NCBI GenBank assembly: GCA_032718475.1
Contig: JAUCBJ010005698.1
Coordinates: forward strand, 1-64,000
Reading direction: 5' to 3'
Source: Nemertoderma westbladi
Taxonomy: Eukaryota > Animalia > Xenacoelomorpha
Length of the DNA stretch: 64,000 bases
Position 1 is the first letter of the stretch. Each line of letters starts with the position of its first letter. Shown here piece after piece: positions 3,797 through 64,000 of the stretch. Made by a program: the position numbers and the translations under genes. The notes under the pieces were generated by a model. The model did no database searches. It saw nothing but the letters and a program-made list of their open reading frames with translations, and was not told where the DNA came from.

Positions 3797-3902
3797 TCTC
3801 TGATTTATAAAATGTGCAATCTATCCAGATAATTTATGCCTTCCAGGAACTGATCGGAGAGGAACGGAACGGAGATTCTGTTAGGATAAAATAATAAGAA
3901 AA

Positions 3903-6142: not shown

Positions 6143-6414
6143 TGCTATACTAAGTAATGGTATGAAAATAAATTCCGCAATAACACTAGAGATAAATACA
6201 CTTAATATGAGATGGTCCTGATTATAGTATTATGCAACATTAGATACCGATAAGTCAGTGTCAGTCAGTCAGTGAGTACTGAGTATAGGTATGTGAAACG
6301 ATGGGTTCTGCGTCTTTACTGCATTATGCTTTTATGTTCTTTGGTCCTGCGAGTTAGGTCGTGGCGTGCGAAGGACAAACGACCTAATGAGAATGACCTA
6401 GGACTTAACACAAC

Positions 6415-8637: not shown

Positions 8638-8689
8638 TTTGTATGTATAGTAATAACCTGCAGTTGTGAAAATACAACCATTTTACATT

Positions 8690-12650: not shown

Positions 12651-13058
12651 GATTAAAACTCAAAAGCAGGTATTCCAAATATAAATAGCCGAATTTTTAG
12701 ATTGCACACTGTATTTAGGCCTCCTAGAGATAAATAAACAGTAAACTGGTAAACACAATTATATCTATTGGTTGCCAATCTGACAGTACAGCAGTATGAG
12801 TAGAGTGTAGTGATTTAAGTCCGAAAATATTTGGTTTCAGGCCTACTCAGGTTCTACAAAGTACCGGTAAGAAGACTAGAGGCAAGTGGACAGTTACAGA
12901 TGCAATTCTAATGTTTTGAAATTCAAATTGAGCAGCAAATTTCAACAGTATGATCAGGAAGAAACAAAAAGGAAAGAAATCAAAACAATAAACGAGAGTT
13001 AGGAATATTGTAGCTGTAAGAAACGAAATGGGGTTAGCGACTCGAAATTTGTTTAAAG

Positions 13059-19448: not shown

Positions 19449-19586
19449 CCAAGAGTTTAGCTCCCACTAATTCAACCGGTCAACCGGTTTAATGGTTTAA
19501 CCATAAAATAAGACAGTAATCCGGGTTGTGATTAAAGCTAGAAATATTTTTATTTTCGCAATAAGGAAGGCAGTTGGATAGGTCAA

Positions 19587-38400: not shown

Positions 38401-41400
38401 AAGGGATCACGTTTCAGGTTGCCTGTTACGTATCAGTATCAGCATATGAAGTAGCAGTACAGGCATATCGGTATGCATCTAAATGCACAAAGGCATGTTA
38501 TTGTATATTAATAATGCGATATAGGATGAAGGATGGCGGGTATGAAAGTTGTGTGATTGTCCCAGCAAAGATGGATAGTTTCAGATGTAAACAACTTTTG
38601 TAGATTTAGTCTGTTAGTTGGTGTTGAAACATTAAACTTTTATTAAAAACAATACAGCATTTGCTGCAATATTTTTTTCGTAAATCTTTCTTGTTAATAG
38701 TTATCATTATTAATAGTTAAAGTTAATTATATTAATTATAATTAATATTATTAATTAAGTACGGTAATGATTCTTATTAATAAATTACATTTAAAATATG
38801 TATGAAATTTAAGAATTTTATTAATTTTACTATTTATTAAAGAATATGGGAAGGTGGATGGGAATGTGGGAATTTATAAACACTTAATACCTTCCAATTG
38901 AAGGAAAAGAGCAGGTTACAGCGGCTGTAATTTCTAACCAAAACAATAAACGACGTTGTTGCCTACAAATTGAGGGAAAGGAGCAGGTTACCGAGACAGG
39001 GTTTTCTAACCAAAACAATAAACGATTTTGTTACCTACCAATTGAGGGAAAGGAGAATATGTTACCGCGGCGGCTTGTTTACACAGTTACACCCGTCACC
39101 TTCTTACTAACCGTCCTACTGACTGATCAATAGATCATCCCCCTCAAAAATAAAGGACATCGCGCACGCGCATAAAAAACTTAATAAAGATAAATTTAAT
39201 AAAAAATATCGACCAATAAAAAATCGACCGAAAAATGAAATCCTGGTATTCTTCACATGGGCGAAGAATACCAGACTTTCTGCCGTTTTATTTCACTTTG
39301 CAGTTACCCCTATGTGAAGAATACTAGGTTTTCACCAAAAACACAGGTTACAGAAGGGCTGAATATAACAGGTTATAAGACATAAATAAGCTCTATAATA
39401 CACTCAATAAAGATAAATTAAAAAAGAATTAAAATCTTCAAATATAAAATTCCAATAAAAGTCAACCGAAAAGTGAAATCCTGGTATTCTTCACACGGGC
39501 GGTATTCTTCACATGGACCGACACCAAAATTAGGCACCAGCCGCTAAAAACAAATTTAAAATTTCTAGCTTATTTTATTTGAATTCCTTTTAGTTCGTTT
39601 CAGTTAGTCTTTTAGTTAGTATCGTTAGTTTCAGAGCGGGAGGTGTTATATAGACACCCCCCCCCCCCCCGGGTTTAAGGGGAATACCGGGGAAACTTCA
39701 CATGCTGACATAGGCAGAAAGTCCAGTACTCATTTAGCTACCATTTAAGGTAGCTAAACATTCGTGCCGAAACGAAAACTACCTTGGCCCCATGCCGGGG
39801 TTGAACCCACAACCTCCGAGAGATGTGAATTCAATATAACCACTACACCAAAGTGCGCTCTGAACCAAGGTGGAACAAGTGTCAGATACCGTCAGATCAG
39901 ATCAGATCAGATCAGATAAGGACAGACGTTTTAGCCATCCTACTACACCAAGGTGGGCTCTGAACCAAGGTGGAACAAGTGTCAGATACCGTCAGATCAG
40001 ATCAGATCAGATAAGGACAGACGTTTTAGCCATCCTACTTTTATAATATATAATATAGATATAATTTGAACAGAATATATTATATTGTATTAAAAAGGTC
40101 GTCTTTCAATTACGTAATCCAACTGGTTATTATTTTAAACTCATAGTAATTTAGGGTATAGATAAACACGTCAATAAACAAATTAATCACTTAATATTAT
40201 AATAATAACTATTTAATTTACAAAAATAAAGTAAATTTTTTTGTCTGAATTTTTAATCTGCATTTTCGAGGAATAGTAAATTCCATATTGTTTTCGAATT
40301 CGAATGTCGAGGAAAAAATGCTTTTATTTTATCTTAATAAAACATTTTAATCCTAAATTTTTAATAATTACCAAAGTAATTTCTGGTATTGAATAAATAC
40401 TGCGAAATCAATAGGATAACATTATAGATCGTTGATTGGATAATTACATTTTAATCAGCATTTTTGGAAGTAATACCGTATAATCTACATTATTGTACGC
40501 AGAAATGACTTCATTTTAAGAAGTTTTGCGGACAATAAATAAGTAATAATGTGTGAAAATAGGTACTGAGATGCTCTCGCGTGAAGTGGCGCAGTGGGTG
40601 GGGGCTCGGGGATGGGGCTGGTCTCCCGTACGCCAATGGCTAGGGGATGGGGCTGGTCTCCCGTACGCCAACGGCTAGGGGCTCGGGGATGGGGCTGGTC
40701 TCCCGTACGCCAACGGCTAGGGGCTCGGGGATGGGGCTGGTCTCCCGTATGCCAACGGCTGGCTAGGGGCTCAAGGATGGGGCTGGTCTCCCATACGCCA
40801 ACGGCTAGGGGCTTGGGGATGGGGTTGGTCTCCCGTATGCCAACGGCTAGACTAAGCAAAGTGTATTATTATTTGCTTTTGGTGTTATCAATTATTGACT
40901 ATGGTTATTATATACTATGGTGGGGGTGTTGTGGCTGAATTAATTAATAATTTTGCATTGTTATTATTAATCCGTTAAATACTGTATATTGTGGTAATTA
41001 TTTAGTAGTAATTACACTGTGTTCTATCTCGTGAAAATAGGTACAATGGTCCTACAGTAAGTTATTAGTTTATTAATTATTTTCTCTCGTTAAAGTTGTA
41101 CTAGTGTAATTACGTTTTATATTGGTTTTAGAGTAGCGTTATGTATTTAATAAATTATACTCTCGAGTTAAATTGGGGTTAAATAAAAAGTGTTAGTGAG
41201 GCTGTTCGCGCTTTCAGACCTTTGGCAGTTTAACCCACCAAATTAAGATGTCTTCTAGATATTAAATCAGTTTTTAGTCTATGACACGTATTTGATTCAC
41301 TACACTAGTCGAAACCAATCCGTGCGCGACCATTCACCCGCTGGATATTCCCGGGAGATTGGGTTCGACGGTTTAATTTTGTTGCTATGTAAGCCTAATG

Positions 41401-44400
41401 TATTATTCGACTGACAGTATTATATAATCTCTGACAATATTATTTACCTTCGGGAATATTAACAGTTCCTTTAGGACGTGGCACTTTATCTACATAAACA
41501 GAGTTATGACTTAAACTACTCACAACGATATGGCTTAATTATAATTCACATATATGGCGCATTCTTTAGGAATTGCTTCTTTAACAGACTCACTCATACA
41601 CAATGCTGCACAATACTGCACACTAATCTGCCAATCTTCACTGATTTTAGTCACATATAAAAGGAACACAGACTGACTCATGTAGGGTCTATCAAATAAC
41701 ATTAGATTCACTTCAAACCACTTTAACATAAGTCACAATCGTTTATCTGTAACCCTTCTCTCTTACCTTCGGTATATCAAGAATATTGGGTTTCGGGGTG
41801 ATTTATCGTTATTCCAATATAATAATTCATCAACCATATTATGAAGAACTGACAGTAAATAGCAGTATAAAACAACAACTGAACACTGATTGTTATGAGT
41901 TTGCAATGTTTCAGCAGTCAGGATGTATGATCAGTCAGCAGTTGATTCCATGAGTCAGGTAGGTTAAAGGATATATGCCCTTTATAATTAAACCTACTAG
42001 TGTAAGACTAAAAACAGTAAAGCACAAAATACTTCCAAGCCGTTCTTTCTTTGGCTCAGGACTGAATGTAAACAATGCACATAGGCATTGCGTCATTTCT
42101 CGGAAATTTTCTGTACAAGGAGCCACAAAAACGCTCCAATTGGCTGACTGAACTGAGAGACGCCGTAGAACAAAGGAAATCAACACGTATGAATGTCAGC
42201 TGTTAACCGTAGTCATAGTAACTACTGTTCAAGAGTAGCTATCACCCCTTTGCGTCACGAATTGCCATAGAATCATAAAATATGCCTTTCACAGTACACA
42301 TACGGAGGAAATAGGTCTTAGATCCTCTAAAAACACCGATACAGCAATAATACGGTCTCTTACACTTATTAAATCAACTACAGAGTATTTTAATGTAAAA
42401 GATAATAAAAATAACGGGGCAATTCAGCAAAGGCTTTTACACCGCTCCCAGAAAATGGGATTTTCAGTCTATAAAATATAAAAATCACAGTTTCTAAAAC
42501 ATAAAGATACTCTAAACAGTTAGTCTTTCTTACGCAGACGGCGTTTACGCAGTTTTTTGAGGCTAGCAAGAGTCTTTTTCTCTTTGGGGGGAGCCACTTT
42601 ACTAGGAGGGCCATAACTCCTGGGTGAAGGGTGCAATATGATTGCATCAGAAGGTGTAGGATTGTGGTCGAGGTATCTGCCGTTTCGATATGCTTCTCCT
42701 CGAGCTTATTTTCCTCCGCTCGTAGCTGGATACGTTCATCCAAAAACTCTCGCAGAGAATAGGATCGTCCAAGTTCGATAACTTCTCAGAGATTCTGGAT
42801 TTCCCAATCGAATTGAGATAAGGCCAATTCGTGTATCGATTGGACTCACTGTTATAACTTACGTTTATCTGAACAAACGCAGGTTTCCTTTTTGATCTTT
42901 ATAAAATAGCGTTTAACTCGTTTCGTACAACGCTCTCCTTCACCTTGATGAGGGGTTGTATCGCGTTAAACGTGGACGACCATACGGTTGGATAGTGATA
43001 TTAGGTGTCCGCGTCACAATCCGGCTAGGTAAGATGGGCGGCTAGCTAGAAATCACTGTCGGAGTGTTACCGATTAATTGTTAGGGTAGCACTAGATCTT
43101 TGAACAGTGAATACAGTCCGCGAGGATCCGCGACACCACCAAGATCGCAGGTCTGAGGTCCAACTAAGGAATGAGGAGGTTTGACCGAGCATTCCGAAAC
43201 TCTGATCATTGGTTTATTTAAGGATCGTCTGAATCGAACGAGCGTAGGTGATACATTGAACAAGTTTCGCTCGAAACTCCTGTAAGTATAGCGAATAAAA
43301 CCGTGTTTAAAGCAACGTCTCCGTGGATGCTTATGTCTTTCCGTTTGTTGGTTGGGTCTTGGGCATTCATCGCAATAATACCCAAAAACGTACGTCTTGT
43401 AGGGGGAACGCGTGTGATCTTTCTCCAGCTTACAATATTCCTCCATCCGTTCGAAGCTATTCGGTACAACAGGTAGCGGTCGATCGGCGGTAAGATACAT
43501 CATAGGGGAATCGGGCCGTTTGAGTTCTACCATGCAGTCATGATGTATACCTTGAGGATATCGAGTTTCTAGATTTTGTTGACTGGCAATATTGCGATAT
43601 GTTTCTATCAGGAATTCCAGATAATCGTTGAAGTCGCTGCGTTTATCCGGCTCCTCAACGTCTTCTCTTTCGATTCGGTTTCGCATAGAATTCTCATGTT
43701 CGATTCTCGGTTTATTGTTCCGCCTCCGCTGGGTATGATATTTAAATAGAACCATTTCCCCTTTGGTGTCTATATCGTCTATATCGTGTAAATCGATAGG
43801 ATGACCAGTAGTTAAGAAGGCCATATACGTACCATTACGCTGCGTATATCGAGCAGCGAATTTTCTATAGTCCAACTCACGCGCGAGCTGCTCTTGGGAC
43901 ATTGGCGGTTCGATATAACGACCATCGTCCTCCGCAGCAGTTGGACTAACGTCGCCGCGTATTAAGCTATCAACAAACGCTTGCAAAAGTAGAGTATATC
44001 GCTCCCCGATACCAAGAACATCTTCTATCAACTCCGTCATGTCTGCTATATATGAGTTTATCCACATTATAAGGAGTTTATATTCAGGCTAGCGAGCGTC
44101 GCTGCCTACTCCAATTAACCCCCGGACAGTACGAGATCCTCAGCGCCGATGTGTCGTCGCCGCTGTACTTTCGCCAACGACGTAGCCGCACAACGACAAC
44201 GACAACCGACACAAGTCACTCGACTGTCCGTCCCAAAGACTTAGATGTACTTCAGGTTTTCCTTGGAGAGTTAGGTTACTTTTACGATTGCGACTAGCTA
44301 CTGTAAACACACCTTAGCAGTAACATTCACCTATAAACTCACAAATACCACACACACAACTTGTCACAAATTACACACATTCGGGCCATTTGTCCGTTAG

Positions 44401-47400
44401 TCAATGCCTTCCAGAATGTCACTGTATTATTATGTATCCTTGGATACTAGTAGTGCGCTATTTATTCTCTATGCTATTCAATGGGACAGGCTTTCTATTG
44501 TTCTTTTAACTCAATTCTAATTCTAGCGTGGTTGTTGCTATGGTGACATTATGCAAAGCTAGCGGTAGAATTAGGGTAGTTCCAATGCATACAGATCTGG
44601 GATGTTATTTAATAGTATTCTTTAATAGTCAATGTTCTGTTTTATACATGACTTTATGAATTTTATCGGCTATTGACTATGTTTGGGAGACTTTCACACA
44701 CTCGTACGCATGATAAGATAAATCTCCGCTCCCTTGATTTATTAATTAATGGAATTTTGGGAACTTTATAAATTGCGTAAAATGGCAATTTATTAAATTC
44801 ATTAAAAGGCATGAATTTAACTTGATTCCCTGAAATTTTATTATTTGATAATTAAATGGACATATTTGGATTCCAGAACATGTCTGGGGACACAAGATCC
44901 TTAATTCTATGACAATTGTCTTTTTAAGAATATCGGTAAATGCTACGATATCTTAATTGACTAGAATTGTTGAAGGATCTGAATTTTACAGATTTTGACT
45001 TATTTGATTTGTAAATATTAACTAATTAATATTTGAGATGGGCACCGATTTATTCCAGAACTTGTCTGGGGACGTTAACCACTGATTCTATAATTTGTCT
45101 TTCAAGTATATCGGTGGGTGCCACGATATCTTAATCGACTAGAATTACAGATGGTCAAAGGGTTTAACAGATTTATTTTGCGTTATACGCTACTGTTAAA
45201 GGGACATCACGCTACTATATGTATTATTTAATATACGGTATGAGAGCAATATCGCACGAAGCAATGTCAGTGTGAAGAGGCAAGTCGTTTCCAAGGTCTA
45301 CCCAGAGCTTGGTTTAGCCGAGACACGAGGATCTGAACTTTGCATTCCTAATACTCTGCCTACCAATAATACTTAAATATAGTAGTGGCTTTATTGTACT
45401 TTAATAAGTACGGACATTTCATCTTACTGTAGTTACGTATTTGTAATGTAATACGGACAGTAAGGAAGAAGGAAAAGAATTATTTCTTGCCGTCGCATTA
45501 AATATAATATATACGTAATTAAGTAATAAACGCGAATATATATTGCACTAATCTACTAAATAATCGCTAAAATAACATTCTACTGAATAAAATTAAAGAA
45601 AACGATTATAATAGAATTACATAGTAATACATACATAAATATAAAAATAATAAAATAATATAAAATAATAGAGTCACACACCCACTCCATATGTTGTTAC
45701 GTTATGGAGTCCCTAGATGTTTGAAGGATTAGGGAGGTGGTCGTGGGAAGAGAATCTTGCCTTCCACAGTTTCCGGAGAGTCCTCCATTCCCTTCCGATA
45801 AACACAAACGACCGACTGGGTGATTGAGTCGCTGCATCCTGAATACAATTCCAGGTTTCCTCTTCGTCCTGGAATAGTGACGATAGAAACATCGCTCAAA
45901 GTATATGACGGCGTCACAAAGCCGATTCCAGGAGCTATAGTGGTCCGTCGCTCTCTGCAGGAGAGGTGAGAGTCTCTGCGAGACGTCTGATGTTCCAGAG
46001 CTCCAATCGCTCTCTCTGATCTTCATGAAGGATCCACTCGCGGAAGGGAGGCCCAGATCCACGGCGTCGTCCCTGGCAACATGTAATACCGACAGATCTA
46101 TCCCGGGTTCAAATAACTCCGATCCACCCGTCCGGGTTTCAGGTTCGACTTTCTCCGCTCCCTTGGCTGGTCTAATCTCAGTCGGAGTAAGATGGGGAGG
46201 CCATTCATTCTCCTTACTCAGGAAGTCGGGTTCACCTAACCGATCTATAGTATCTGTTAGTTCTTGAGGAGTTGCTCCTCTGGAAGCGATGTCCGTTGGA
46301 TTAAACTTCTTGGGGCAATATCTCCATTGATCTACATTGGAGCTAAGATTGTCATTATCTGAGGAGTGTGGTGTTCCCTCAGTTGGGTCGTCTCCCTCAC
46401 TAGTATCGTCTTCCCATTCACTCACCTGGCAGACACGATCTTGAAGCAGTCTTTCCCTGAGCGTTCTACGGGAAGGTCCAGTAAGGTACCAACATACTCT
46501 AGTTCTTACCGCATAGGTCTGTAGGGGCTGCGGTTGAGCAGGCCGTTTCTCTAATGTCTCCAGCGCCTCATGCGCGTTTTGGCCGATGAGTATTTGCACT
46601 CCAGGGTAATCAGTCTGGAATCGAGGTATGTTAAGATGTTGGATGCTCTCATCCTCGTCCCAATTATAAAGGTCTGCTTGAGTAGTAGCGAAGTTCTTTA
46701 TAGCCACCATTTTCACTGACCTTATGCTATGTTCTCCTAGTTCGTCTTGTGGGGTGGACAACGCGCCTACATAATAATCAGCTGTTATTGTAGATTTCCA
46801 AACTTGCATAATGCCTGACATGTTGAGCTTAGTTTGGAACTTGGGTTGTCCAGCAAATATATCTTCGGCTAGCTCTTTATCGATGAATGTTCCTGTGCTG
46901 CCGGAGTCCAGGAGGGCGTTCACTACATAACTCCGTTTAGGTCCGTGCACCCTTACCTGCACCACAGGAAACTCTCGGATTCCTATATTGGAAGTTGGCG
47001 CTTTCCAAGATGGTTGTTGATCGGAAGTAGTTAAGGTAAGGTCGCTGTCTGTGTCTTTCTCATGTACGAGTGCTCGATACACTGCGGTGGTGTTTATTAG
47101 GTAACAGGATTCGTTTTGGTCGGAGAACTCGTCCGTATAGAATCCTTCCATCTCAGATTGATCAGTGTCGTTCACATCACTGAATTGGACATGTAGTTCG
47201 GACTCACTTACCTGACTCGGGCTGTTTCGTTCGAATTCCGTGTGCAACAAGATATGATGTTTTGCGCCGCACTTTGCACACCTTGCGTCGGAGTTACAGG
47301 TTCGCCGTTGGTGTCCTCGTCTGAGGCAATTATAACACAACCGCTTATCCCACATGACTTCACGTCTATCCTCGAGTGATTTCCTCAGGAATTTATCACA

Positions 47401-50400
47401 CGCATTTAAACGGTGGGGCCCGTCGCACAGCACACATTTCGGCTTGATGTTACTTACTTTAACCTGTGCTATGTGGTGCACACTTGTTCTTTCCTCGGGC
47501 TTTCTCACCTGAATTCCTTTAGGAGACGTAGGAGGGGTTTTTTGTATCGGTTCCCTTCTGTCATTGGGTCGAGACTTGGATTTACTTACCTGTTCTTTAG
47601 GCATTTTATTGACATAATAAGGTCTGTCAGTGTCTTTCCCGCTGTCCTCTCCTTGAGAGGTTTGGCTTTCACCGTCGTCGGTATAACATACTGGTGTTAC
47701 CCTTCTCCTAGAAACGGGTTTCTCACTTACCTTGTTTTCCAATGTCTTCTCTCTGGACTGCCTTAGGAGCTGTAATTTCACTTCTCTATCTAAGAATGAC
47801 ATGAGATCAGTCATGGTAGGGTCTCGTCGTTGTTGTTCCATCATATATAACACTTTCTTATCCCAGTGTGTACCTACTCCACCCTTCGGTAAAGCAGAAG
47901 CCACTGCTCTAATAACCATAGCACTCTGATACTCATGAGACTTACCTAGCCAATCTAATTGTCTGCAGATCTCCTGAATTTCATCGGAAAACTCTATAAT
48001 CCCGCTGCTAATAAACTTTCGGGGCGCTACCAACTTTGCATACAAATACCCAGCTATGTTATTCCTATTACCATACCTGATGTTTAGTGTATCCCAAACT
48101 TGTCTTAATCCGTCTGGATGTCCAATAAACCTTAACGCCATTAACTTGGGAGATCCTTCCAAGCACTCGATGAGGTATCTAAGTTTTTCTCCATTAGATA
48201 GTACAGAGTTCTGTATGTTATCTTTGTAATATTCATTAAAAGGTAACCATTTCATCTCATCTCCATTGAACTTGACGATCTCTCCAACCTTTACCGCTTG
48301 CCGGGCTTCGGTTCTAGCCATTTGACGCGTAAAACTTTCTTGGGCCATCGTGCTATTTAATATCGAGTTATCGGTATATAAATTTCTAGGATTATGGTCA
48401 GTTCTATATGGAATATCATTATCAACAGGTCTATAATTACCCTTAATAGGGTTCACTATAGGAGTTTCTACTTCGCTAGTAGTATAAATGCGTGTAGGCT
48501 CCACACCTTGCGCATGAGATACTTCAGACCTAACGGGTTGACACATTGTTACAGAGGGTGGTGGTATACCCTTTTGGGTGTTTACTAATTTATCGCGTTC
48601 AAGCGCGATACTTTGCTGCACTTCTTGCAACTCTAGCCTACTTTCCCTTACTGTGCCCTTGAACTGCTGGACAGTCTCCTGCATCTGTCCGAGCAGGATA
48701 TCCATCCCCCGCCGTCTCTCGTCCACCCATTCGACCGCCGAAGCGGGAGTCGCCAACGTTGTAGCGGGCGGACGAGGGACAACGGGAGACAAATCTGGAA
48801 TATTTCGCTCGGGGTCCAGGACCTGAACTGTCTCTTGGGCAGTTCCACGGGGCACAGGTAGCTTAGTGCTATGCAGAGGGAATTTAGAAGTAGTTTCAGG
48901 GAGCACAGGTGTATCTATCACCGAAGGGGTGATTTCAAGAACAGGCCTAATTATTTCAGGCTCATCTACTATAGTAGGGAGTCTTTCTATTTTAATTATT
49001 TGGTCTGTGGGCTCTGTACTACCTAAGTTGGTGTTATTTAGTTGCCTTCTAACAGCTGGAGGCAAATCAGGCAATTTCTGACGGTGGAATGTTCTTTTAC
49101 GTCTACTTAGACGAGATCTATTTCCTTTGCCTTCAGTATCGGTGGTATCGCCTTCCTCCGATGATGTATATCCCTGTCTTTTGGGAGTAGATCGATCCAT
49201 CATCCGCATATTGCTAGCCGTTAACTGTTTATTTATGCAGTCTTGATTCTCCTGAATGTTTTCCAATTCTAACTGGGTGGTTTCTTCAGTCGCTCTCCGT
49301 TCTGCTTCTGCCACTGCCTCTGCCGCCTTTCTTTCAGCTGCTGCTTCTGCCAAGGTCGCCTTTGCTTCTGCCGCTGCCTCTGCCGCCCTTGCCTCTGCCG
49401 CTGCCTCTGCCGCCCTTGCCTCTGCCGCTGCCTCTGCCGCCTTTGCCTCTGCCGCTGCCGCTTTTGCCCCTGCTGCTGCCTCTGCCGCTGCCACTTTTCT
49501 TTCTGCTTCTGCAGCTACCACTGCTGCTTTCTTTCTGTCTTCTATGCGTTTTTTCTTTACTTGTTCTTCCCTTTCTCTAGCGATGCGGAGTTGTTCATCG
49601 AATTTAGCTTGGTTCGCCGCTAACCTATCCACATCAATCGCATCTAACACAAGTTTGGCTCCTTCACTATTAGGGCTAAGCCCATCTAGTCTTCTCCGCA
49701 ACTCTTCATCACCTACGAAACGCTGATAGTCTGACAGATAGATGTCAATGGCATCCCTCTTATGCGGTTTCTCTGCTGTCACTTCGCTCTCGGTTGTATC
49801 TAGTAGACTGTCTGACAGATTCTGCTTTGCGTCAGACATGCTTATGTATACCGTTGAATGTCTACTGCTGTATTACAGTCTGAGTAAGTCTAGTAACTCA
49901 GTATTAACTGCTAGCCTAGTAATTAATTACCGGTACTGCTACTCAGTGTAGTAGGATATATATATAATATATTAGAATACCGGTATACTTATAGTATATA
50001 TAACTATATAAGTATTATTACAGACTAGGTTTATCACAGAATACCGGTATAATTTTAGCACAAATATATATAAATATATAATAGGCCTATCGGAATACCG
50101 GTATACAGCTTACAGTTTGTAGGATATATAATTCTGAAATAGAATTAATTACAAGTACCGGTATAATTTCAGCCTAGATTTATAGAAATAAAGATAATAG
50201 GCCTATCGTAAATACCGGTATATCAATTATTTCAAATAATTGAATTTCTGTTACTTTAGGGTTACTTGGTTACTTTACTTACTTTATTACCGTTATTTGA
50301 GCAGTAATCCAACTTATATTGAGACCTAATGGTTGTATGGTAGGCCTACGATTTATAAATCGTTAGATTTGATTTATAATATATATATACCCGTTTTAAT

Positions 50401-53400
50401 GGGTTTTGTCAATGTTTGAAATAAATGTTATTATTTCTGGGGAGTAATCACTACACAAAGCGGTGCGCTTTCAGTGAAGTGTTACGTACAGGACACTAAA
50501 ACAAATAATACTAATTTACCTAAGTTACTTAATACTACAAATTACGTACAATTCGGCTGAGATTACAATCTCTAAATAAATGCAAAAATTTACAAAAAAC
50601 ACAAAATACGAATTTTTAGGGTAATTTTACAAGAAGTCTACAAACCAGCCTAACAAAGGGTTAGAATACCGGTCATTACAACGGACAGGGTACTACGGTA
50701 TTTGAAATAATAAGTAGTAGTAAATACACTGCGTTGTCTAGATAGGAAAATACCACCGCCTGACGACCTATAGCCGTATCGCTATAGGTTCTACGTTATG
50801 TATCACGGAGTGTTCCTACCTAGAAGTTAATAGAGCTAATCGAATGTGCCTATCAACCACTTTACAACACAAATATAATGTCTACAATAATTACTTCGGA
50901 AAGTACTGTACACTAAACCCTAAATTAGGTACGAGTACTTATATAACAGATAATCAGTAGTTAAATATACTTGAACAGCTAAAAGAACCACGGCATCTGC
51001 TGGAGTGACCGATGCACAAAATCACCAGTCTTTACCTACGCCGAGCAGCCCGTGTAGTACCGGGGTTAATTTAACTATAACGGTATGTATAACAAACACA
51101 ATTACTGTAGGAACAAACTTGGGGAATGAATGTTGCGGATAATCGCATAAACTCCGAATAATAAATATTACGCTACGCGTACAAACTACTCAAACAAAAT
51201 ACAGACCGAACACTGACAGACTACTATCAAGCCTAAACAAACTACGGTATATGCAGACTCCGAAATGATTAGGGAGTATGCGCTCTAACCCAGTAGTGCG
51301 ACTTATTCTTTAGTTGGGGGATTACCTTACAGCGTTCGCTGCCCCTACTGCCTAATCATACTTAATCGGACAGATGATCTACACACGTGGCAATCCGTTC
51401 AGACCTAATAACAGCCAGACAACTATCCAGCCTACAAATTATCTAAATAAAATTATACGCTACCCGTACAGACTTACACAAACAAAGTACAGACTAAACG
51501 ATGGCAGACCACTCTCAAGCCTAAATAAACCACAGGACATGCAGACTCCGAAATGATTAGGGAGTATGCGCTCTAACCCAGTAGTGCGACTTATTCTTTA
51601 GTTGGGGGATTACCTTACAGCGTTCGCTGCCCCTACTGCCTAATCGTACTTAATCGGACAAGTGCTCTACACACACTGTAATCCGTTCAGACTTAACAGC
51701 AATCAGACAACAGCTCAGCCTACAAATTGTCTGTACAATCTGATCAGGCTTACACGCCTTCTGTTCAATACTGGCCTACAAATAAATAAAACTTGACAGA
51801 AATAAGTAAACCATATAAAGGTATAAGGGGTGATCAATCCCTAATCCCCTAAACAGCCTACCGGTATACAACAATCAAATCGAATAATACTAGTGTACTT
51901 ATACGGAAGTACCGGTTAGAACAGTTAGGCCTACTGACCTACAGAATGTACCGGTTCAGGTTTACCGGTTGACCGGTACTTTCAACTTTATTGCTTACTG
52001 CAACAAAGAAGCTATATCCTTTAATGTTCGCGCTTTCAGACCTTTGGCAGTTTAACCCACCAAATTAAGATGTCTTCTAGATATTAAATCAGTTTTTAGT
52101 CTATGACACGTATTTGATTCACTACACTAGTCGAAACCAATCCGTGCGCGACCATTCACCCGCTGGATATTCCCGGGAGATTGGGTTCGACGGTTTAATT
52201 TTGTTGCTATGTAAGCCTAATGTATTATTCGACTGACAGTATTATATAATCTCTGACAATATTATTTACCTTCGGGAATATTAACAGTTCCTTTAGGACG
52301 TGGCACTTTATCTACATAAACAGAGTTATGACTTAAACTACTCACAACGATATGGCTTAATTATAATTCACATATATGGCGCATTCTTTAGGAATTGCTT
52401 CTTTAACAGACTCACTCATACACAATGCTGCACAATACTGCACACTAATCTGCCAATCTTCACTGATTTTAGTCACATATAAAAGGAACACAGACTGACT
52501 CATGTAGGGTCTATCAAATAACATTAGATTCACTTCAAACCACTTTAACATAAGTCACAATCGTTTATCTGTAACCCTTCTCTCTTACCTTCGGTATATC
52601 AAGAATATTGGGTTTCGGGGTGATTTATCGTTATTCCAATATAATAATTCATCAACCATATTATGAAGAACTGACAGTAAATAGCAGTATAAAACAACAA
52701 CTGAACACTGATTGTTATGAGTTTGCAATGTTTCAGCAGTCAGGATGTATGATCAGTCAGCAGTTGATTCCATGAGTCAGGTAGGTTAAAGGATATATGC
52801 CCTTTATAATTAAACCTACTAGTGTAAGACTAAAAACAGTAAAGCACAAAATACTTCCAAGCCGTTCTTTCTTTGGCTCAGGACTGAATGTAAACAATGC
52901 ACATAGGCATTGCGTCATTTCTCGGAAATTTTCTGTACAAGGAGCCACAAAAACGCTCCAATTGGCTGACTGAACTGAGAGACGCCGTAGAACAAAGGAA
53001 ATCAACACGTATGAATGTCAGCTGTTAACCGTAGTCATAGTAACTACTGTTCAAGAGTAGCTATCACCCCTTTGCGTCACGAATTGCCATAGAATCATAA
53101 AATATGCCTTTCACAGTACACATACGGAGGAAATAGGTCTTAGATCCTCTAAAAACACCGATACAGCAATAATACGGTCTCTTACACTTATTAAATCAAC
53201 TACAGAGTATTTTAATGTAAAAGATAATAAAAATAACGGGGCAATTCAGCAAAGGCTTTTACAGAGGCTGTGCCCAACCAAATACAAATATTCTTGACAA
53301 ACAGTAGTCAGTCAGCTCAGCAAGTAGATGTCACAAAATGATAGCTCTGCTTTAGACTTTATGTTATCATATTTATAATACCAGTAGGAATGAATATGAT

Positions 53401-55317: not shown

Positions 55318-56142
55318 TTTCTGGAGTAAACATAAGATATCAACTTTTCTGGCAGCCATCCCATCGCAAGGTTAGCGTTGCGTTAGCTGTGGACGACCGG
55401 GTATGACATATGTTTGATCGATCTAGTAGTAGTAATAGTTGTTGTAGTACATAGTATTCCAGATATCTGAGAACTTGATGTTTTGCCAAAGAATCAACCT
55501 CGGTTTGGGCACTTTTAGTGAGATTAATCCAAATAAAGCTAATTGTAGGGTAATAATAATTTCATCAATGATTGTAGTCTATAGGGTGCTGGGTGGGTAG
55601 AATAAAGCAATAAAACAGGTGGTAGAATTATATATAAATTTAAATTTTAGAATTGTGTATGTGTATACTGCCCTGTATATTGGCAGTAACTGCAAATTTG
55701 AGGAATTAATATATTATACTATATATATCTATATCTATACTATATGTAAGGACTCACTTAGAGTCAACCAATCACACGTAAGGGCGCGCTCACTTAGAGT
55801 CAACCAATCACACATATGGACGCGCTCACTTTGGGTCAAACAATCACACGTAAGCACTCACTTCGAGTCAACCAATCACACGTAAGGGCGCGCTCACTTT
55901 GGGTCAACCAATCACACGTAAGGATGCAGTCACTTAGAGTCAACCAATCACACGTAAGGGCGCGCTCACTTTGGGTCAAACAATCACACGTAAGGACTCA
56001 CTTAGAGTCAACCAATCACACATAAGGACGCGCTCACTTTGGATCAAACAATCACACGTAAGGACGCGCTCACTTAGAGTCAACCAATCACACGTAAGGA
56101 TTCACTTAGAGTCAACCAATCACACGTAAGGGCACGCTCACT

Positions 56143-59100
56143 TGTCATTCGACATTCGACAACGACTTGGTAGAATGTCATGATGATAAAGTAAAACAAG
56201 ACAACTCCTCCAGCAAAACCAGTTGTGAAATTAGAAACTCTGCGGTTCAGTATTCAACACTAAGCCCAAACCGACATGAACACACACATATCAACAAACC
56301 AAAATCATCATCAAAAGGGGAATTTGAGAATGGTCTGTGGAATAATAAGGCGAAGTGCAAGAACAATGTCCCATCTATTCATAAGGTGAATCAGTATTGC
56401 AATCAAAATGATAACTGGAGAAACCATCCCAAAAGTCAAGCTGCTGCAGTTCGGCGTAATCAATAATCATAGCACACCGCACTATTACTCTAGCAGAGAA
56501 AATCTATCAGTTGGAACACACACAAAATCGTCTAATGGAACACAAAGCAGACATAAATACTATACGGAAATGGGAAATATTGGAAGTGAAGTGGGTAACT
56601 CCATATTATATTTAACAGGCATGAACATCTCCTGCTCCAAGGAACAGATAGTCGACTACTGCTCATCAGTGGATATAAAGAGTAATCGAATCTCAACCAG
56701 GATTTATAATGGGCAAAAGAACATGAGATCAGAGACAGGAAGACTAAATGCAGCAAAGCTAACCTCTACTAATTTCTGGCCGTCTGGTTTTGTATGCATT
56801 GACTGGCAGTTTAGACACTATGCATATCAGAGCAGCAGAGGGAAGACCTACAACGCACTGATCTACCACAACCCTTTCACAATCAGCAAGGACAGCATGC
56901 ACCGGTATCCAGGCCAATGGAAAGAATGCAACGAGAGTTCAATAACTATACAAGAAGAGATACAATTGGAGGAGGGCGAATTGAAACCCATAACTATCAA
57001 TAACTCAAAATCATCACTAAATGGCAATGGACTGAAAACTGGAATGTCTGGATCACTCTCCTGTGCAACACTGAACATAGGTGGTCTTGCATCTAACTGG
57101 AAGTATCTGGAAGAGTTCAGGATCATGCAGTAGTAGCTGTACAGGAACACTGGTGTGATCACTTCGAGATAGATAGATATAGATAGATAGATTTATTTAT
57201 ACATTATGTAAAAACAATAACAAATACACCAAACAATGTACCGGTATAAAGGTATTGTCCAACATAACATATAGGATTACCCCTAAAGCTTTGCAGCTTA
57301 TTTCCAAGGGGGTCCTTTATGTTACTTGGTTACAAATACAATATTACACTACGCTAACCTAAAACCAATATAAAACGTAATTACACTATGTACATGTACA
57401 ACTTTACCGAGAGCGTGACAATGCCCGACTCAACGATAAAGATGTAATGTACAGAACAATTTATTATAAAACGTAATTACAGTATAAATAGTAAATAATT
57501 AATAAACTAATAACTTACTGTAGGACTATTGTACCTATTTTTACATTGCACACGGAGATGAGATTTAACTGCAGATTTAAAAGAATGTTGATTATTTAGG
57601 TTTTTAATTTCATTAGGCAGAGCGTTCCAATTTTTTATGCCGTTAAAAAAGAAAGTATCAGATTCAAAGGATTTACAATTCGGGAGGTAGAAGTTTGAAG
57701 CACTAGCTCTGGTACTGTAAGAGTGTGTATCGCGTACTCTGTTGAATTTTTGTTTTAGGTAATTGGGACATTTACCATTATACACTTTATGCACATGGTT
57801 AAGGCGTAGCTGCTTAACTCTACTATCTAAGTTAAGTAGTCCAGATTCAGAAAAGTCATCTGGAGTTAGGTGGTGCCTAGGTTTGTAGTCTTTAATAAAT
57901 CGTACTACTTTATTCTGAGCTACTTGTAATTTACATTTAAGCTGTTTGGTTAAGCCTTCATACCAAGAAGAGCACGCATAGTCCATGTGACACTGTATTA
58001 AAGAAGAGCAAAGTAACTTGCGGGAGTCGGTGTTTAAACTATTTTTATTTCTGTATAGAAACCTAAGCCTACTGTTAACTTTCGAGAAAATATTTTTCAC
58101 TGTACTTTCTCCTGATAAGCAGTTATCCAATGTGGCGCCTAAATATTTAACTTCCTTTTTATTTTCAATCTTATGTCCATTACTAGTGACTTCAAACTTA
58201 GTTACCTTCTTTAACTTTATTTTGGAACCAAACAAAATACTTTCAGTTTTACCGTAGTGAATGGATAGCTTATTATCAACCAACCACTCATTACAGGATT
58301 CTAGAACTGCACTTAACTTTTGGGAAATAAATCAAGATAAATAAGATGACTGAAACATTTCAAAAATGGCTCCCAAACCACCATAGAGCGATCTATTCCA
58401 TTTCAGATAGAATGCAGTCCTCAACATGCAAAAGAGGGATTGGGGGGACCGCCTTAATACTAGATACAAGTCAACTCACTGACATTTCTCCGGTTCGTTC
58501 TGGATGTGATATTGTGGGAGCCCTTGCTAGCTTCAAAAATAGAAGATTACTGATACTTAGTGTATATGCTCCAGACTCCAATAAGGCTAAGAGTGATTAC
58601 TTAGACTTCATCGGTCGCTTAGAAGGAGTTATTGGACCTTATGGGACATACGATAAACTGATTCTGGGAGATTATAACGCAGTGACGAAATTCCTACGCA
58701 TCTTCAAGATGCACTACGTTCAAATTTTACGAAACAATTAAACAAGCTCCCGGAACAAGACTTTTCAGATATAATCTTAGAACTGGATGAGAAATGTGGA
58801 AATTCCGCTGCACCACACATCACAGCTAGCTGTATCCGATGTGCGATCCATAACCTCAACTTGAATAAATCACCAGATCTGAACTCAATGGTTGCTGAGC
58901 ATCTCTTAGCCCTAGATCCATGTTACATTGTTGCAATTCTGCAGACGATCTTCAATACAGCCTTGCGAATTGGTCATTGTCCCGAGTCCTTTGGTGAGAC
59001 CGTTGTTTTCTGTATTTATAAAGGGAAAGGCAAAGACCGTTCATCTCCAAGTTCATATAGACCAATTTCCTCCGTGAATCTCCTATCTAAAATTTTCTAA

Positions 59101-59152
59101 GCAATATGTCTCAAGGATTTTATCTGCAATATTCTGCCACACGATTCATCAA
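56143..59152 (+). mobile_element. Decayed CR1/L2-group LINE (ORF1 remnant, APE endonuclease, start of RT), 3'-truncated
   Basis: ORF1-like LYLTGMN..FWPSGFVCIDW; EN motifs ATLNIGGL, QEHW, GGTALI, LSVYAP, LILGDYNA; pre-RT KSPDLNSMVAEHL, IYKGKGKDR..SYRPIS. Confidence 0.85.
57167..58332 (-). mobile_element. 5'-truncated L2/Crack-like LINE 3' end nested in the LINE above
   Basis: NKLSIHYGKTESILFG, VKYLGATLD, SLIQCHMDYACSSW, LQVAQNK, WNALP..FKSAVKSHL; AATAAA plus (TATC)n tail on minus. Removal restores host frame QEHWCDHFEINKMTETF; short AGATA duplication. Confidence 0.9.
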
Positions 59153-62100
59153 TGAGTCAACCAATCACACGTAAGGATGCAGTCACTAAGAGTCAACCAA
59201 TCACACATAAGGACGCGCTCACTTTGGGTCAAACAATCACACGTAAGGATTCACTTAAGAGTCAACCAATCACACGTAAGGGCGTAAGGGCGCGCTCACT
59301 TAGAGTCAACCAATCACACGTAAGGATGCAGTCACTTAGAGTCAACCAATCACACATTAGGACGCGCTCACTTAGAGTCAACCAATCACACGTAAGGGCG
59401 CGCTCACTTTGGGTCAAACAATCACACGTAAGGACTCACTTAGAGTCAACCAATCACACGTAAGGGCGCGCTCACTTAGAGTCAACCAATCACACGTAAG
59501 GGCGCGCTCACTTAGAGTCAACCAATCACACGTAAGGGCGTAAGGGCGCGCTCACTTAGAGTCAACCAATCACACGTAAGGATGCAGTCACTTAGAGTCA
59601 ACCAATCACACATAAGAACGCGTTCACTTTGGGTCAAACAATCACACGTAAGGGCGCGCTCACTTAGAGTCAACCAATCACACGTAAGGGCGCGCTCACT
59701 TTGGGTCAAACAATCACACGTAAGGACTCACTTAGAGTCAACCAATCACACGTAAGGGCGCGCTCACTTAGAGTCAACCAATCACACGTAAGGGCGCGCT
59801 CACTTTGGGTCAAACAATCACACGTAAGGACTCACTTAGAGTCAACCAATCACACGTAAGGGCGCGCTCACTTAGAGTCAACCAATCACACGTAAGGGCA
59901 CGCTCACTTAGAGTCAACCAATCACACGTAAGGACTCACTTAGAATCAACCAATCACACGTAAGGGCGCGCCCACTTAGAGTCAACCAATCACACGTAAG
60001 GGCACGCTCACTTAGAGTCAACCAATCACACGTAAGGGCGCGCTCACTTTGGGTCAAACAATCACACGTAAGGACTCACTTAGAGTCAACCAATCACACG
60101 TAAGGGCGCGCTCACTTAGAGTCAACCAATCACACGTAAGGGCGCGCTCACTTTGGGTCAAACAATCACACGTAAGGACTCACTTAGAGTCAACCAATCA
60201 CACGTAAGGGCGGGCTCACTTAGAGTCAACCAATCACACGTAAGGGCGCGCTCACTTAGAGTCAACCAATCACACATATGGACGCGCTCACTTTGGGTCA
60301 AACAATCACACGTAAGGACTCACTTAGAGTCAACCAATCACACGTAAGGGCGCGCTCACTTAGAGTCAACCAATCACACGTAAGGATGCAGTCACTTAGA
60401 GTCAACCAATCACACATAAGGACGCGCTCACTTTGGGTCAAACAATCACACGTAAGGACTCACTTAGAGTCAACCAATCACACGTAAGGGCGCGCTCACT
60501 TAGAGTCAACCAATCACACGTAAGGGCGCGCTCACTTAGAGTCAACCAATCACACGTTAGGATGCAGTCACTTAGAGTCAACCAATCACACATAAGGACG
60601 CGCTCACTTTGGGTCAAACAATCACACGTAAGGATTCACTTAGAGTCAACCAATCACACGTAAGGGCGCGCTCACTTTGGGTTAAACAATCACACGTAAG
60701 GACTCACTTAGAGTCAACCAATCACACGTAAGGGCGCGCTCACTTAGAGTCAACCAATCACACGTAAGGATGCAGTCACTTAGAGTCAACCAATCACACG
60801 TAAGGGCGCGCTCACTTTGGGTCAAACAATCACACGTAAGGACTCACTTAGAGTCAACCAATCACACGTAAGGGCGCGCTCACTTAGAGTCAACCAATCA
60901 CACGTAAGGATGCAGTCACTTAGAGTCAACCAATCACACATAAGGACGCGCTCACTTTGGGTCAAACAATCACACGTAAGGGCGCGCTCACTTAGAGTCA
61001 ACCAATCACACGTAAGGGCGCGCTCACTTAGAGTCAACCAATCACACGTAAGGGCGCGCTCACTTAGAGTCAACCAATCACACGCAAGGGCTCGCTCACT
61101 TAGAGTCAACCAATCACACGCAAGGGCTCGCTCACTTAGAGTCAACCAATCACACGCAAGGGCTCGCTCACTTAGAGTCAACCAATCACACGCAAGGGCT
61201 CGCTCACTTAGAGTCAACCAATCACACGCAAGGGCTCGCTCACTTAGAGTCAACCAATCACCCGTAAGGATGCAGTCACTTAGAGTCAACCAACCACACA
61301 TAAGGACGCGCTCACTTTGGGTCAAACAATCACACGTACGGACTCACTTAGAGTCAACCAATCACACGTAAGGGCGCGCTCACTTAGAGTCAACCAATCA
61401 CACGTAAGGGCGCGCTCACTTAGAGTCAACCAATCACACGTAAGGACTCACTTAGAGTCAACCAATCACACGTAAGGACTCACTTAGAGTCAACCAATCA
61501 CACGTAAGGACTCACTTAGAGTCAACCAATCACACGTAAGGACTCACTTAGAGTCAACCAATCACACGTAAGGGCGCGCTCACTTTGGGTCAAACAATCA
61601 CACGTAAGGACTCACTTAGAGTCAACCAATCACACGTAAGGGCGCGCTCACTTAGAGTCAACCAATCACACGTAAGGATGCAGTCACTTAGAGTCAACCA
61701 ATCACACATAAGGACGCGCTCACTTTGGGTCAAACAATCACACGTAAGGGCGCGCTCACTTAGAGTCAACCAATCACACGTAAGGGCGCGCTCACTTAGA
61801 GTCAACCAACCACACGTAAGGGCGTGCTCACTTAGAGTCAACCAATCACACGCAAGGGCTCGCTCACTTAGAGTCAACCAATCACACGCAAGGGCTCGCT
61901 CACTTAGAGTCAACCAATCACACGCAAGGGCTCGCTCACTTAGAGTCAACCAATCACACGCAAGGGCTCGCTCACTTAGAGTCAACCAATCACACGCAAG
62001 GGCTCGCTCACTTAGAGTCAACCAATCACACGTAAGGACTCACTTAGAGTCAACCAATCACACGTAAGGACTCACTTAGAGTCAACCAATCACACGTAAG

Positions 62101-63034
62101 GGCGCGCTCACTTTGGGTCAAACAATCACACGTAAGGACTCACTTAGAGTCAACCAATCACACGTAAGGGCGCGCTCACTTAGAGTCAACCAATCACACA
62201 TAAAGGACTCGGTCACTAAGTCTGTAGTGGTGGTCAAATTAAATATTCAAATACATTTATGAAGTAAGTATCTTTTCAGATCAATTAATTTATTAATGGT
62301 TATTTTTTCCTTTCGATCTATTATTGAAACATGCAATTACAAGAAAGGTCAAAGGTCACCAAATGCGACTAAATGACACTTTGTAAAAACTCACCCATAA
62401 TTACTGCAAGTAATAATGGCCACGAAACAAAAGGTAGAAAAACTAATAACGGGGAACATTTAATTAATTAATTAACACTTAGATTTAATTAAAGACGATT
62501 ACTATGAAATTCCAATTAATGAAAAAGTTTAATAATTATTTGCTGTAACTTTATGACATAATCGTAACGAAGTTGGTTTACATCAGCCCTGACCCTGAAG
62601 GTGCAAAATTGTTTACGTTCTAAATTTTGAGAATTAAGTTAATCGGTAAACAAGAATAAATAAATCAATTTAGTATATCAAATTCATATTTACGAGCAAA
62701 ATCCAAAGAAAAATAAATATAATCGTCAAAATAACATCGGCCAATAAAAACATAAACATTGTAGCGAACTAAATCAATAAGCTAAGTTGTTAGTTAAAAG
62801 TGAAAGTAATTAAAGTAAATCCTTGATTATATTTAATTAATAAATAGCACCAATAAACAAAATATATTTTAATTTAAAGTAAACATGTAAAACAAGCAAC
62901 TAATCACTATAAATATTATATTCGAACAACTAAATCAACAAAGTGAATTCATTAACATAAGTATATTAAAGCACAGCTTTATTAGCGAAAATTAATTAAC
63001 TTGATGGCGCCCGGTGGTTTCTAGAACGTTTTTA

Positions 63035-64000
63035 TCACCTTTTTTTGGATTTTATTCTTGAGTTTTTACCCTTAAATTCTTCTATAAGTTCCTGCTGTGC
63101 CGCCAGTTTTTCGTTCATCGCCACCAGATGCTCGCTCATCATACTGAGCTGCTGCTCGTAACTGCCGCGAGTCCCGTTGAGTTCGTCCCGAAGGGCGACG
63201 CACTCGGCGTTCAGCGAACCGCACTCGCGCTCGGCCTCGACGCGTTTCCGCTCGTCCAACGCCAGTCTGCGGTGCAGCGTGCGGCACTCGGTGTGCAGAT
63301 GGACGCAACGCGACTCGGAGCTCTGAACGCGGACCGCCAACTCCTCGAGACGCCGAGAGTGGTGGGCGACTAGCAGAGCTTCCCGCGGGGCGACGTCATC
63401 CTCGAGGAACACTTCGCCGGAGGGTCGGGAAGGAGTCATCGAACCCAAGGAAGAGTAGTCGGTGATTAGGTTGGAGTTCCTCCGGTGTTCCGGTCCGACT
63501 TCCGGGCCGTCGCGCCCCTTAGCGGTGAGTCTCTGCAGCAGTTGGGCCTCGACCATCCAGTGTTGTTTCTGCTGCTCCAGCAGTCGTTGTCGTTCGTTTC
63601 CGCGCTCCGTCATGTCGGTTAGCTCCGCGCAACGGATACGGAGTTTCTCGAGACTCTCGCGGTTGGAGACGGCCTCGAGGTGGGGGATCGAATTGGAGTC
63701 GTTGGTGGTGGCGTGGAGGATAAACCGACGGGTCTGGGAGAGGAGTGAGGGGAGTAGGGAGGGGGGGAGGGAGGAGGAGGGGAGGGATGAGTTTCCAACG
63801 CAAGAATCTTCCAGGAACCCTCGAGTTCGAACCGGAAGCGACCCGGAACGGAGGAGCTCGGAGGAGTTCAGCTGTACCAACTCGGAGAGGCGGCTCAGCG
63901 ACTCCGCGAGGGCCGACAGCGCGGAGAACAAACAACGGTTGGTGGAGGAGAGTTGGGAGGAGGTGGTCGGCAACTCCTCCTCCAACTCGAGTTTATTCCT
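63035..64000 (-). CDS. PPP1R21: Protein phosphatase 1 regulatory subunit 21 (KLRAQ1), C-terminal part; 5' end outside the window
   Basis: LRDELNGTRGSYEQQLSMMSEHLVAMNEKL matches the conserved TTKRSYEDQ C-terminal motif; upstream coiled coils with KQHWMVEAQLL and REALLVAHH. Confidence 0.9.
   Translation of the reverse strand, partial: RNKLELEEELPTTSSQLSSTNRCLFSALSALAESLSRLSELVQLNSSELLRSGSLPVRTRGFLEDSCVGNSSLPSSSLPPSLLPSLLSQTRRFILHATTNDSNSIPHLEAVSNRESLEKLRIRCAELTDMTERGNERQRLLEQQKQHWMVEAQLLQRLTAKGRDGPEVGPEHRRNSNLITDYSSLGSMTPSRPSGEVFLEDDVAPREALLVAHHSRRLEELAVRVQSSESRCVHLHTECRTLHRRLALDERKRVEAERECGSLNAECVALRDELNGTRGSYEQQLSMMSEHLVAMNEKLAAQQELIEEFKGKNSRIKSKKR

What the first reader, a model, noticed from the sequence alone, without database searches (positions are those of the whole stretch)
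52011..52800. BEL/Pao element with an apparent self-priming site instead of a tRNA PBS
Seen: on the sense (minus) strand the 5' LTR ends ...CGAACA and is followed at once by TTAAAGGATATAGC (52024-52011), not the TGG of a tRNA PBS. The LTR itself contains the exact complement 5'-TATATCCTTTAA-3' (minus 52797-52786; also 41975-41964), extendable by GC across a 1-nt bulge. Pairing stops exactly at the LTR boundary, where a primer 3' end must sit. Known: this geometry defines tRNA-independent self-priming in the Tf1/sushi group of Ty3/gypsy elements, where the first 11 nt of the mRNA anneal to the PBS and are cut off by RNase H. I am not aware of it being described for BEL/Pao. Inference: an independently evolved self-priming BEL lineage. 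Caveats: implied R-U5 is long (~770 nt), the motif is AT-rich, it overlaps a local TAAAGG/CCTTTA hairpin, and the nearest TATAAA is only 5 nt upstream.
Basis: partly seen in the sequence, partly recalled or inferred. Interest (0 to 1): 0.9.

Follow-up and report, generated by a model that had tools for sequence, protein, structure and literature searches.

The report
Self-priming signature in BEL/Pao retrotransposon
A young, defective BEL/Pao jumping gene has no tRNA landing site and instead carries 12 letters there that exactly match a stretch of its own terminal repeat, a layout that distant relatives keep with different letters, so it likely starts copying itself with a piece of its own RNA.

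Summary
The element is a recently inserted, non-autonomous BEL/Pao retrotransposon: identical 1239-bp LTRs, a 5-bp target duplication, Gag-protease kept, RT and integrase missing. No TGG lies within 40 nt of the 5' LTR. The first 12 nt are exactly complementary to LTR 52797-52786 (chance 6-8 of 20000). Ten distant BEL families from metagenome contigs, whose LTR ends I fixed from LTR pairs, also lack a boundary TGG. Nine show a 10-15 nt exact self-complement, all with different letters (cross pairs at most 9 nt, n=110); in six of the nine the match forms only across a predicted LTR intron. So self-complementary primer sites are a real, wider BEL trait, and self-priming is likely (about 0.75 over all forms). 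Not shown: the transcript ends (no RNA data), the cut, or that this copy works as Tf1 does. Its geometry is atypical: 761 nt to the LTR end against 62-216 in relatives, and a TATAAA too close to be the promoter, though well placed as a poly(A) signal. 'Independently evolved' is untested: the element is a long, unplaced branch. Nine literature searches found no BEL report; this scan noted the trait before in other genomes.

The parts
52025..53263 (-). 5' LTR, 1239 bp, TG...CA
   Evidence: 100% identical to the 3' LTR
41203..42441 (-). 3' LTR, 1239 bp
53264..53268 (-). Target-site duplication GCCTC, 5' side
41198..41202 (-). Target-site duplication GCCTC, 3' side
52011..52024 (-). Primer-binding position, TTAAAGGATATAGC; no tRNA-type TGG
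52786..52797 (-). Candidate self-primer TATATCCTTTAA (LTR position 467-478); GC at 52800-52799 extends the pairing across a bulge
   Evidence: exact 12-nt complement, 6-8 of 20000 by chance; folds
41964..41975 (-). Same motif in the 3' LTR copy
52803..52808 (-). TATAAA: 11 nt before the motif start and 17 nt before its end; role (TATA box or poly(A) signal variant) unresolved. The LTR has no AATAAA; ATTAAA at 53216 and 52199
52781..52819 (-). Local hairpin (GTAGG...TAAAGG / CCTTTA...CCTAC) that competes with primer-site pairing
52312..52588 (-). Possible intron 1 in the LTR, downstream of the motif (AAG|GTAAG donor); untested
   Evidence: motif listing only
52077..52269 (-). Possible intron 2 in the LTR (AAG|GTAAA donor); untested
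   Evidence: motif listing only
49840..52010 (-). 2.2-kb leader with a 288-bp tandem duplication (51187-51444 / 51475-51732, 88%)
45697..49839 (-). Single ORF, 1380 aa from ATG: Gag (DUF1759, three Cys/His knuckles), protease (LLDSGST), then a short remnant from late in the BEL polyprotein (residues about 1166-1214); no RT or integrase match
43081..44088 (-). Extra 335-codon ORF between pol remnant and 3' LTR; no Pfam family, homologue or atlas hit
42442..42449 (-). Polypurine tract GGGAGCGG abutting the 3' LTR

Best explanation
This non-autonomous BEL/Pao element has a primer site that exactly matches 12 nt of its own LTR, and it likely primes reverse transcription with that stretch of its own RNA, taken from the 5' copy and predicted to be cut free by a partner element's enzyme. 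Shown: element anatomy, no tRNA-type site, the exact complement, and the same relation with different letters in distant BEL families. Inferred: transcription starts at or upstream of 52797; the motif pairs with the site behind the LTR; RT/RNase H supplied in trans cuts at the 3' end of the duplex, as in Tf1; minus-strand DNA then copies the 761 nt back to the cut. Plus-strand copying of the primer would rewrite the site each cycle, which explains why site and motif change together. This copy carries the primer ready-made, while most relatives appear to assemble it by splicing an LTR intron.
For: Exact 12-nt match at the boundary: 6-8 of 20000 by chance, and the only such position of 9553 in the element. 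The insertion is recent (LTRs identical), so the site worked. In 10 of 10 distant families with LTR ends fixed by LTR pairs there is no TGG within 10 nt of the end. Cognate matches are 10-15 nt exact in 9 of 10 and 11 nt with one G-U in the tenth; cross pairs average 6.09, maximum 9, n=110; 0 of 100000 permutations reach the observed sum. The result survives allowing any GT..AG intron (0 of 100000) and forbidding splicing (36 of 100000). Leader folds give motif:site pairing of 0.8-1.0 for 11 of 12 pairs when the 5' end lies at 52797-52811. Precedent: Tf1 cuts an 11-nt primer with RNase H (PMC7175516, passage); self-priming is also predicted for Tcn1 and for TAR copia elements (PMC6317226, passages).
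Against: No RNA data: start, end and splicing are unknown. If TATAAA at 52808 is the promoter, a start about 30 nt on (recalled spacing) falls just past the motif. In full-leader folds starting at 52830 or further upstream the local hairpin wins and pairing to the site is 0, although two-piece co-folds favour the site at all 18 starts tried. Motif end to LTR end is 761 nt against 62-216 in 10 relatives. The relatives are distant (at most 26% identity) and the element is a long unplaced branch, so there is no covariation within its own family. Host tRNAs and fragments could not be scanned (no genome). My sample held no tRNA-primed BEL as a positive control.
Confidence: 0.5

Rival explanations
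1. Self-priming from the RNA's 3' end: TATAAA is the poly(A) signal, the RNA is cut at about the motif's end, and the trimmed 3' end pairs with the site, the terminal AA matching the TT next to the LTR.
For: TATAAA ends 17 nt before the motif end, within the usual signal-to-cut spacing (recalled). The LTR has no AATAAA. The match is flush with the LTR end and ends in AA. It explains why the hexamer is too close to be a TATA box. An unchecked note of this scan proposes the same for other BEL elements (e1-7468529).
Against: In 6 of 9 relatives an AATAAA or ATTAAA lies 12-94 nt downstream of the primer end, so their primer is not the RNA end. ATTAAA at 52199 offers this LTR a conventional signal with a short U5. 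No clear G/U-rich tract directly follows the motif. The tail would have to be removed.
Confidence: 0.17
2. TATAAA is the real TATA box, so the motif sits in U3 and exists only in the 3' copy of the RNA. It pairs with the site to circularise the genome and either yields the primer by an internal cut or aids strand transfer.
For: Similar TATA-plus-G/C context in relatives that have a TATA box. A start about 30 nt on would lie 6-10 nt past the motif.
Against: In the 3 of 9 relatives with an upstream TATA the primer starts 31-135 nt downstream of it, inside the transcript. With upstream sequence present the local hairpin is predicted to hide the motif. I know no precedent.
Confidence: 0.08
3. A host RNA (tRNA half or other small RNA) primes, and the LTR complement serves another role, such as masking the site or switching between translation and packaging.
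For: tRNA halves prime several Ty1/copia lineages without a TGG site (PMC6317226, passages). A fly BEL element has a tRNA-Tyr site (PMC4580426, passage). The host's RNAs could not be scanned.
Against: A host primer would hold the site constant across families, but the 11 sites compared differ and each matches only its own LTR.
Confidence: 0.17
4. In this one element the match is chance, or a by-product of the local AT-rich hairpin, and it is unrelated to the trait seen in the other families.
For: AT-rich motif, atypical distances, and a scan of very many windows will meet rare events. No close relatives were found.
Against: About 3-4 in 10000 at the one position where it matters, and the same relation in 10 of 10 other BEL families. 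The site matches the motif over 12 nt but shares only 6 nt with the hairpin's other arm.
Confidence: 0.08

Closest known systems
Tf1/Tf2 of Schizosaccharomyces pombe and the Tf1/sushi group (Ty3/gypsy chromoviruses)
   Same: No tRNA site; an 11-12 nt site behind the 5' LTR is complementary to the element's own LTR RNA (PMC7175516 and PMC5341516, passages).
   Different: Different superfamily (BEL Gag and protease). The primer is not shown to be the first bases of the RNA. Primer and site are 761 nt apart. In distant BEL relatives the match starts 2-4 nt after the LTR end and mostly forms across an intron.
TAR lineage of Ty1/copia (Houba, Osr-1) and plant Tcn1 chromoviruses
   Same: Self-priming predicted from sequence alone, and for TAR outside Ty3/gypsy (PMC6317226, passages), so a gain in another superfamily has precedent.
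   Different: Plant elements; the passages read give no splice-built primer and do not cover BEL/Pao.
tRNA-primed BEL/Pao elements (e.g. Achilles of the olive fly)
   Same: Same superfamily and Gag-protease layout, TG...CA LTRs.
   Different: Achilles has an 18-nt site complementary to tRNA-Tyr (PMC4580426, passage). This element and 10 sampled families have no TGG at the boundary. A C. elegans BEL element, Cer7, is recalled as carrying its own tRNA-like primer; not checked.

Membership tests
BEL/Pao (Belpaoviridae) | LTRs with TG...CA ends, 5-bp target duplication, polypurine tract | tested here: met
BEL/Pao (Belpaoviridae) | BEL-type Gag (DUF1759, three Cys/His knuckles) and protease in one ORF | tested here: met
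   PF03564 E=2.4e-11; knuckles and LLDSGST seen; 10 of 10 homologues carry PF05380 and PF03564
BEL/Pao (Belpaoviridae) | RT, RNase H and integrase present (autonomous element) | tested here: not met
   No Pfam RT or integrase hit; BEL polyproteins match only Gag, protease and a ~50-residue late remnant. It is a non-autonomous derivative.
BEL/Pao (Belpaoviridae) | Primer site complementary to a tRNA 3' end (TGG next to the LTR) | tested here: not met
   No TGG in the first 40 nt
BEL/Pao (Belpaoviridae) | Placement in a named clade (Pao, BEL, Tas, Sinbad, Suzu, Sailor and others) | tested here: inconclusive
   Long branch of 2.5-2.8, unplaced; no named reference sequences were on hand
Tf1/sushi group | Ty3/gypsy chromovirus proteins | tested here: not met
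   Proteins are BEL/Pao
Tf1/sushi group | Site behind the LTR complementary to the element's own LTR (works-like criterion) | tested here: met
Tf1/sushi group | [quoted passage not shown] | not testable with these tools
   No RNA data were available for this stretch
Tf1/sushi group | RNase H cleavage releases the primer | not testable with these tools
   Needs biochemistry; this copy lacks its own RT/RNase H
Half-tRNA-primed elements (Osser, Bianca type) | Site complementary to a host tRNA half | not testable with these tools
   No host genome; no tRNA in the window. Family-specific site sequences argue against it.

The most novel reading that the evidence does not exclude
A large part of the BEL/Pao superfamily has replaced tRNA priming with an element-derived primer that most families build by splicing an LTR intron, so host splicing licenses reverse transcription. 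This deeply divergent element is an intron-free form that may draw the primer from its own poly(A) site or from a 5' segment 761 nt away.
Probability: 0.5. Interest if true: 0.85.

Novelty: new variant of a known kind. Interest (0 to 1): 0.66.

Why it matters
Self-priming is shown only for Tf1-type Ty3/gypsy elements and predicted for a few plant lineages. If BEL/Pao elements do it too, the third LTR superfamily has an unrecognised way to start reverse transcription, and tRNA-site filters in LTR annotation would miss or downgrade these elements. A primer formed at a splice junction, as in most relatives here, would tie retrotransposition to host splicing. The claim is directly testable: map the RNA ends and read the RNA attached to strong-stop DNA.

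Tried and rejected
No host genome was held and no sequencing-run data were obtained, so RNA ends, other copies and host tRNAs stay untested. Searches for close relatives found no loci in viral or metagenome contigs; the genome-contig scan did not run. A splice-built primer in this element was rejected: no GT/GC..AG junction in the LTR gives 10 nt or more at offset 0, and outside the motif the best match at offsets 0-6 is 8 nt. A Tf1-like extension helix between 52785-52780 and 52061-52056 has probability 0 in all 9 leader folds, so it was dropped. A blind junction scan on 61 of 79 loci was noisy: 13 of 61 reached 12 nt or more against 3 of 122 cross pairs, 29 of 61 reached 11 against 27 of 122, it includes same-family repeats, and some top scores are not at the true LTR end (L015). 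In 7 loci with only the LTR start fixed, 5 scored 10-11 against 3 of 42 null values at 10 or more; L025 and L053 scored 7 and reached 13 and 12 only after I relaxed the acceptor or the offset afterwards. The careful tree did not finish; quick trees were used, and L013 and L044 dropped out of the first. The extra ORF gave no hit in Pfam, the protein search or the atlas. The sigma-70 scan is irrelevant to a eukaryotic promoter.

Full report
Observation. The minus strand carries a 12,061-bp LTR element. Its LTRs (52025-53263 and 41203-42441) are 1239 bp, 100% identical, start TG and end CA, and are flanked by GCCTC on both sides; a purine tract abuts the 3' LTR. The 5' LTR is followed at once by TTAAAGGATATAGC, and no TGG occurs in the next 40 nt. 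The first 12 nt are the exact complement of LTR positions 467-478 (52797-52786). That 12-mer arose in 6-8 of 20000 simulated LTRs at each of four Markov orders. Among 9553 internal positions only the boundary position has a 12-nt complement in the LTR.

What the element is. One 1380-aa ORF (49839-45697) holds DUF1759 (E=2.4e-11), three Cys/His knuckles and a protease motif. All 10 homologues of the first search carry the Pao-type families PF05380 and PF03564; the deeper search gave 12622 hits, the listed ones at 25-45% identity. Full-length BEL polyproteins match only Gag, protease and a short late remnant; nothing matches RT or integrase. It is a non-autonomous BEL/Pao derivative that moved recently, so it needs a partner's enzymes and its primer site must have worked. 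An extra 335-codon ORF has no detectable relative.

Relatives. No genome is held and no close relative was found. An alignment of 31 full-length BEL proteins retrieved 79 loci from metagenome contigs (the best of 537 confirmed, ranked against one nemertean protein, so the sample is biased to one BEL group), forming 64 families. In 10 loci of 10 different families the LTR end is fixed by comparing the two LTR copies. L031 was left out as ambiguous and added at the point where its two copies diverge, after one search had pointed to that position. None of the 10 has TGG within 10 nt of the end. I scored the longest exact complement of each site (offset 0-5) in each LTR, either contiguous or across a GTRAG..YAG intron. 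Own-LTR scores were 12, 12, 6, 11, 12, 10, 15, 12, 10 and 11; the 6 becomes 11 with one G-U pair. Cross pairs averaged 6.09 with maximum 9 (n=110), and 0 of 100000 permutations among relatives reached the observed sum. With any GT..AG intron, 9 of 110 cross pairs reach 10 or more (maximum 12) but the permutation count stays 0. With no splicing it is 36 of 100000. Seven of the 10 matches (six exact, one with G-U) cross a predicted intron; three are contiguous, as in the window. The sites have different sequences, which a shared host primer would not give. Looser scans agreed but were noisier: 13 of 61 against 3 of 122 at 12 nt or more; 5 of 7 against 3 of 42 at 10 nt or more.

How this copy differs. 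In the 10 relatives the match starts 2-4 nt after the LTR end and ends 62-216 nt before it; here the offset is 0 and the distance 761 nt. Where relatives have an upstream TATA box (3 of 9) the primer starts 31-135 nt after it; here TATAAA is 11 nt before the motif. Where they have a poly(A) hexamer (6 of 9) it follows the primer by 12-94 nt; this LTR has no AATAAA, and its downstream ATTAAA is 587 nt past the motif. No splice junction in this LTR rebuilds the site. Two strong donor motifs lie downstream of the motif; removing both possible introns would shorten the distance to about 290 nt, but nothing shows they are used. Folding is start-dependent. Whole-leader folds give 0.8-1.0 pairing for 11 of 12 pairs with a 5' end at 52797-52811 (6 starts) and 0 for starts at 52830, 52900 and 53263, where a local hairpin wins. 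Two-piece co-folds favour the site at all 18 starts.

Mechanism. Most likely (0.5) the 5' copy of the motif pairs with the site and is cut at the duplex end by a partner's RT/RNase H, as Tf1 does with its first 11 bases (PMC7175516, passage). All steps after the pairing are inferred. A primer from the RNA's own 3' end (0.17) fits the TATAAA spacing and the terminal AA. A U3-only motif (0.08) follows if TATAAA is the promoter. Together, self-priming in some form is about 0.75. A host small RNA with another role for the pairing (0.17) and chance in this copy (0.08) remain. Tf2 shows that start-site choice can include or omit a self-primer (PMC5341516, passages), so more than one start is possible.

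Origin. On Gag-protease trees the element is a long branch (2.81 and 2.5) with at most 26% identity to any row. The free quick tree put it outside the 14 sampled self-complementary loci, but a tree holding them together scored 3.16 log units higher and was not rejected (p-AU 0.628). Independent origin is therefore neither shown nor excluded. The sampled clade also holds sea-urchin and nemertean proteins.

Literature. Nine searches returned no paper that describes self-priming or a splice-built primer in BEL/Pao. I read term-matched passages only, no whole texts or supplements: PMC3601003, PMC6317226, PMC2864245, PMC554778, PMC13524379, PMC6934838, PMC7175516, PMC4580426, PMC3286476, PMC5341516, PMC5443660, PMC8220671. 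PMC3118150 and PMC2774666, two broad BEL surveys, contain no 'tRNA', 'primer' or 'priming'. Self-priming is predicted for Tcn1 and TAR copia elements, and Achilles is a tRNA-Tyr-primed BEL. Older subscription papers, ICTV pages and repeat-database reports were not searched and could hold a prior mention. This scan's own notes report the trait in several other genomes and none in this genome; they are unchecked leads.

Verdict. Real and beyond chance, and part of a wider BEL/Pao trait that I confirmed independently in distant families. The mechanism is inferred, not shown. New variant of a known kind; interest 0.66.

Noticed in passing
L011, L013, L015, L022, L027, L031, L044 (LTR pairs): In 7 of 10 BEL families the primer-site complement exists only across a GTAAG...YAG intron of 76-149 nt inside the LTR; 3 of 10 carry it contiguous.
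   Followed up: yes
window 43081-44088 (-): 335-codon extra ORF between the pol remnant and the 3' LTR, with no Pfam, sequence or atlas match; a second 131-codon frame lies at 42390-42785.
   Followed up: partly
window 52588-52312 and 52269-52077 (-): Two AAG|GTAA donor motifs with similar upstream context inside the LTR, plus AG acceptors just before the gag ATG; may give spliced mRNAs that skip the 2.2-kb leader.
   Followed up: partly
window 51187-51732; 49900-52000: 288-bp tandem duplication (88%) in the leader and many ACCGGT palindromes across it.
   Followed up: no
window 49281-49529 (-): Ala/Glu-rich 27-bp repeat expands the Gag N-terminus.
   Followed up: no
window 10494-12659 (-), 32423-34099 (-), 4934-6229 (-), 1466-3820 (-): Host genes appear as long uninterrupted ORFs: a SAP plus three-RRM hnRNP Q-like protein, NOL10, a PWWP protein and an unassigned 784-codon ORF.
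   Followed up: no
window 20153-20884 (+): Isolated reverse-transcriptase fragment (RVT_1, E=4.5e-11), not matched by BEL proteins.
   Followed up: no
window 26312-31500, 17854-19500, 55697-64000, 35440-36183, 44-1020, 8587-9359: Large tandem arrays with 54-, 36-, 32/36-, 53-, 97- and 83-bp units.
   Followed up: no
L072:2523-3360: Two candidate LTR ends: one followed by TTGGTCCCGAG with a 10-nt contiguous self-match, one with an 11-nt spliced match; the true end is unresolved.
   Followed up: no
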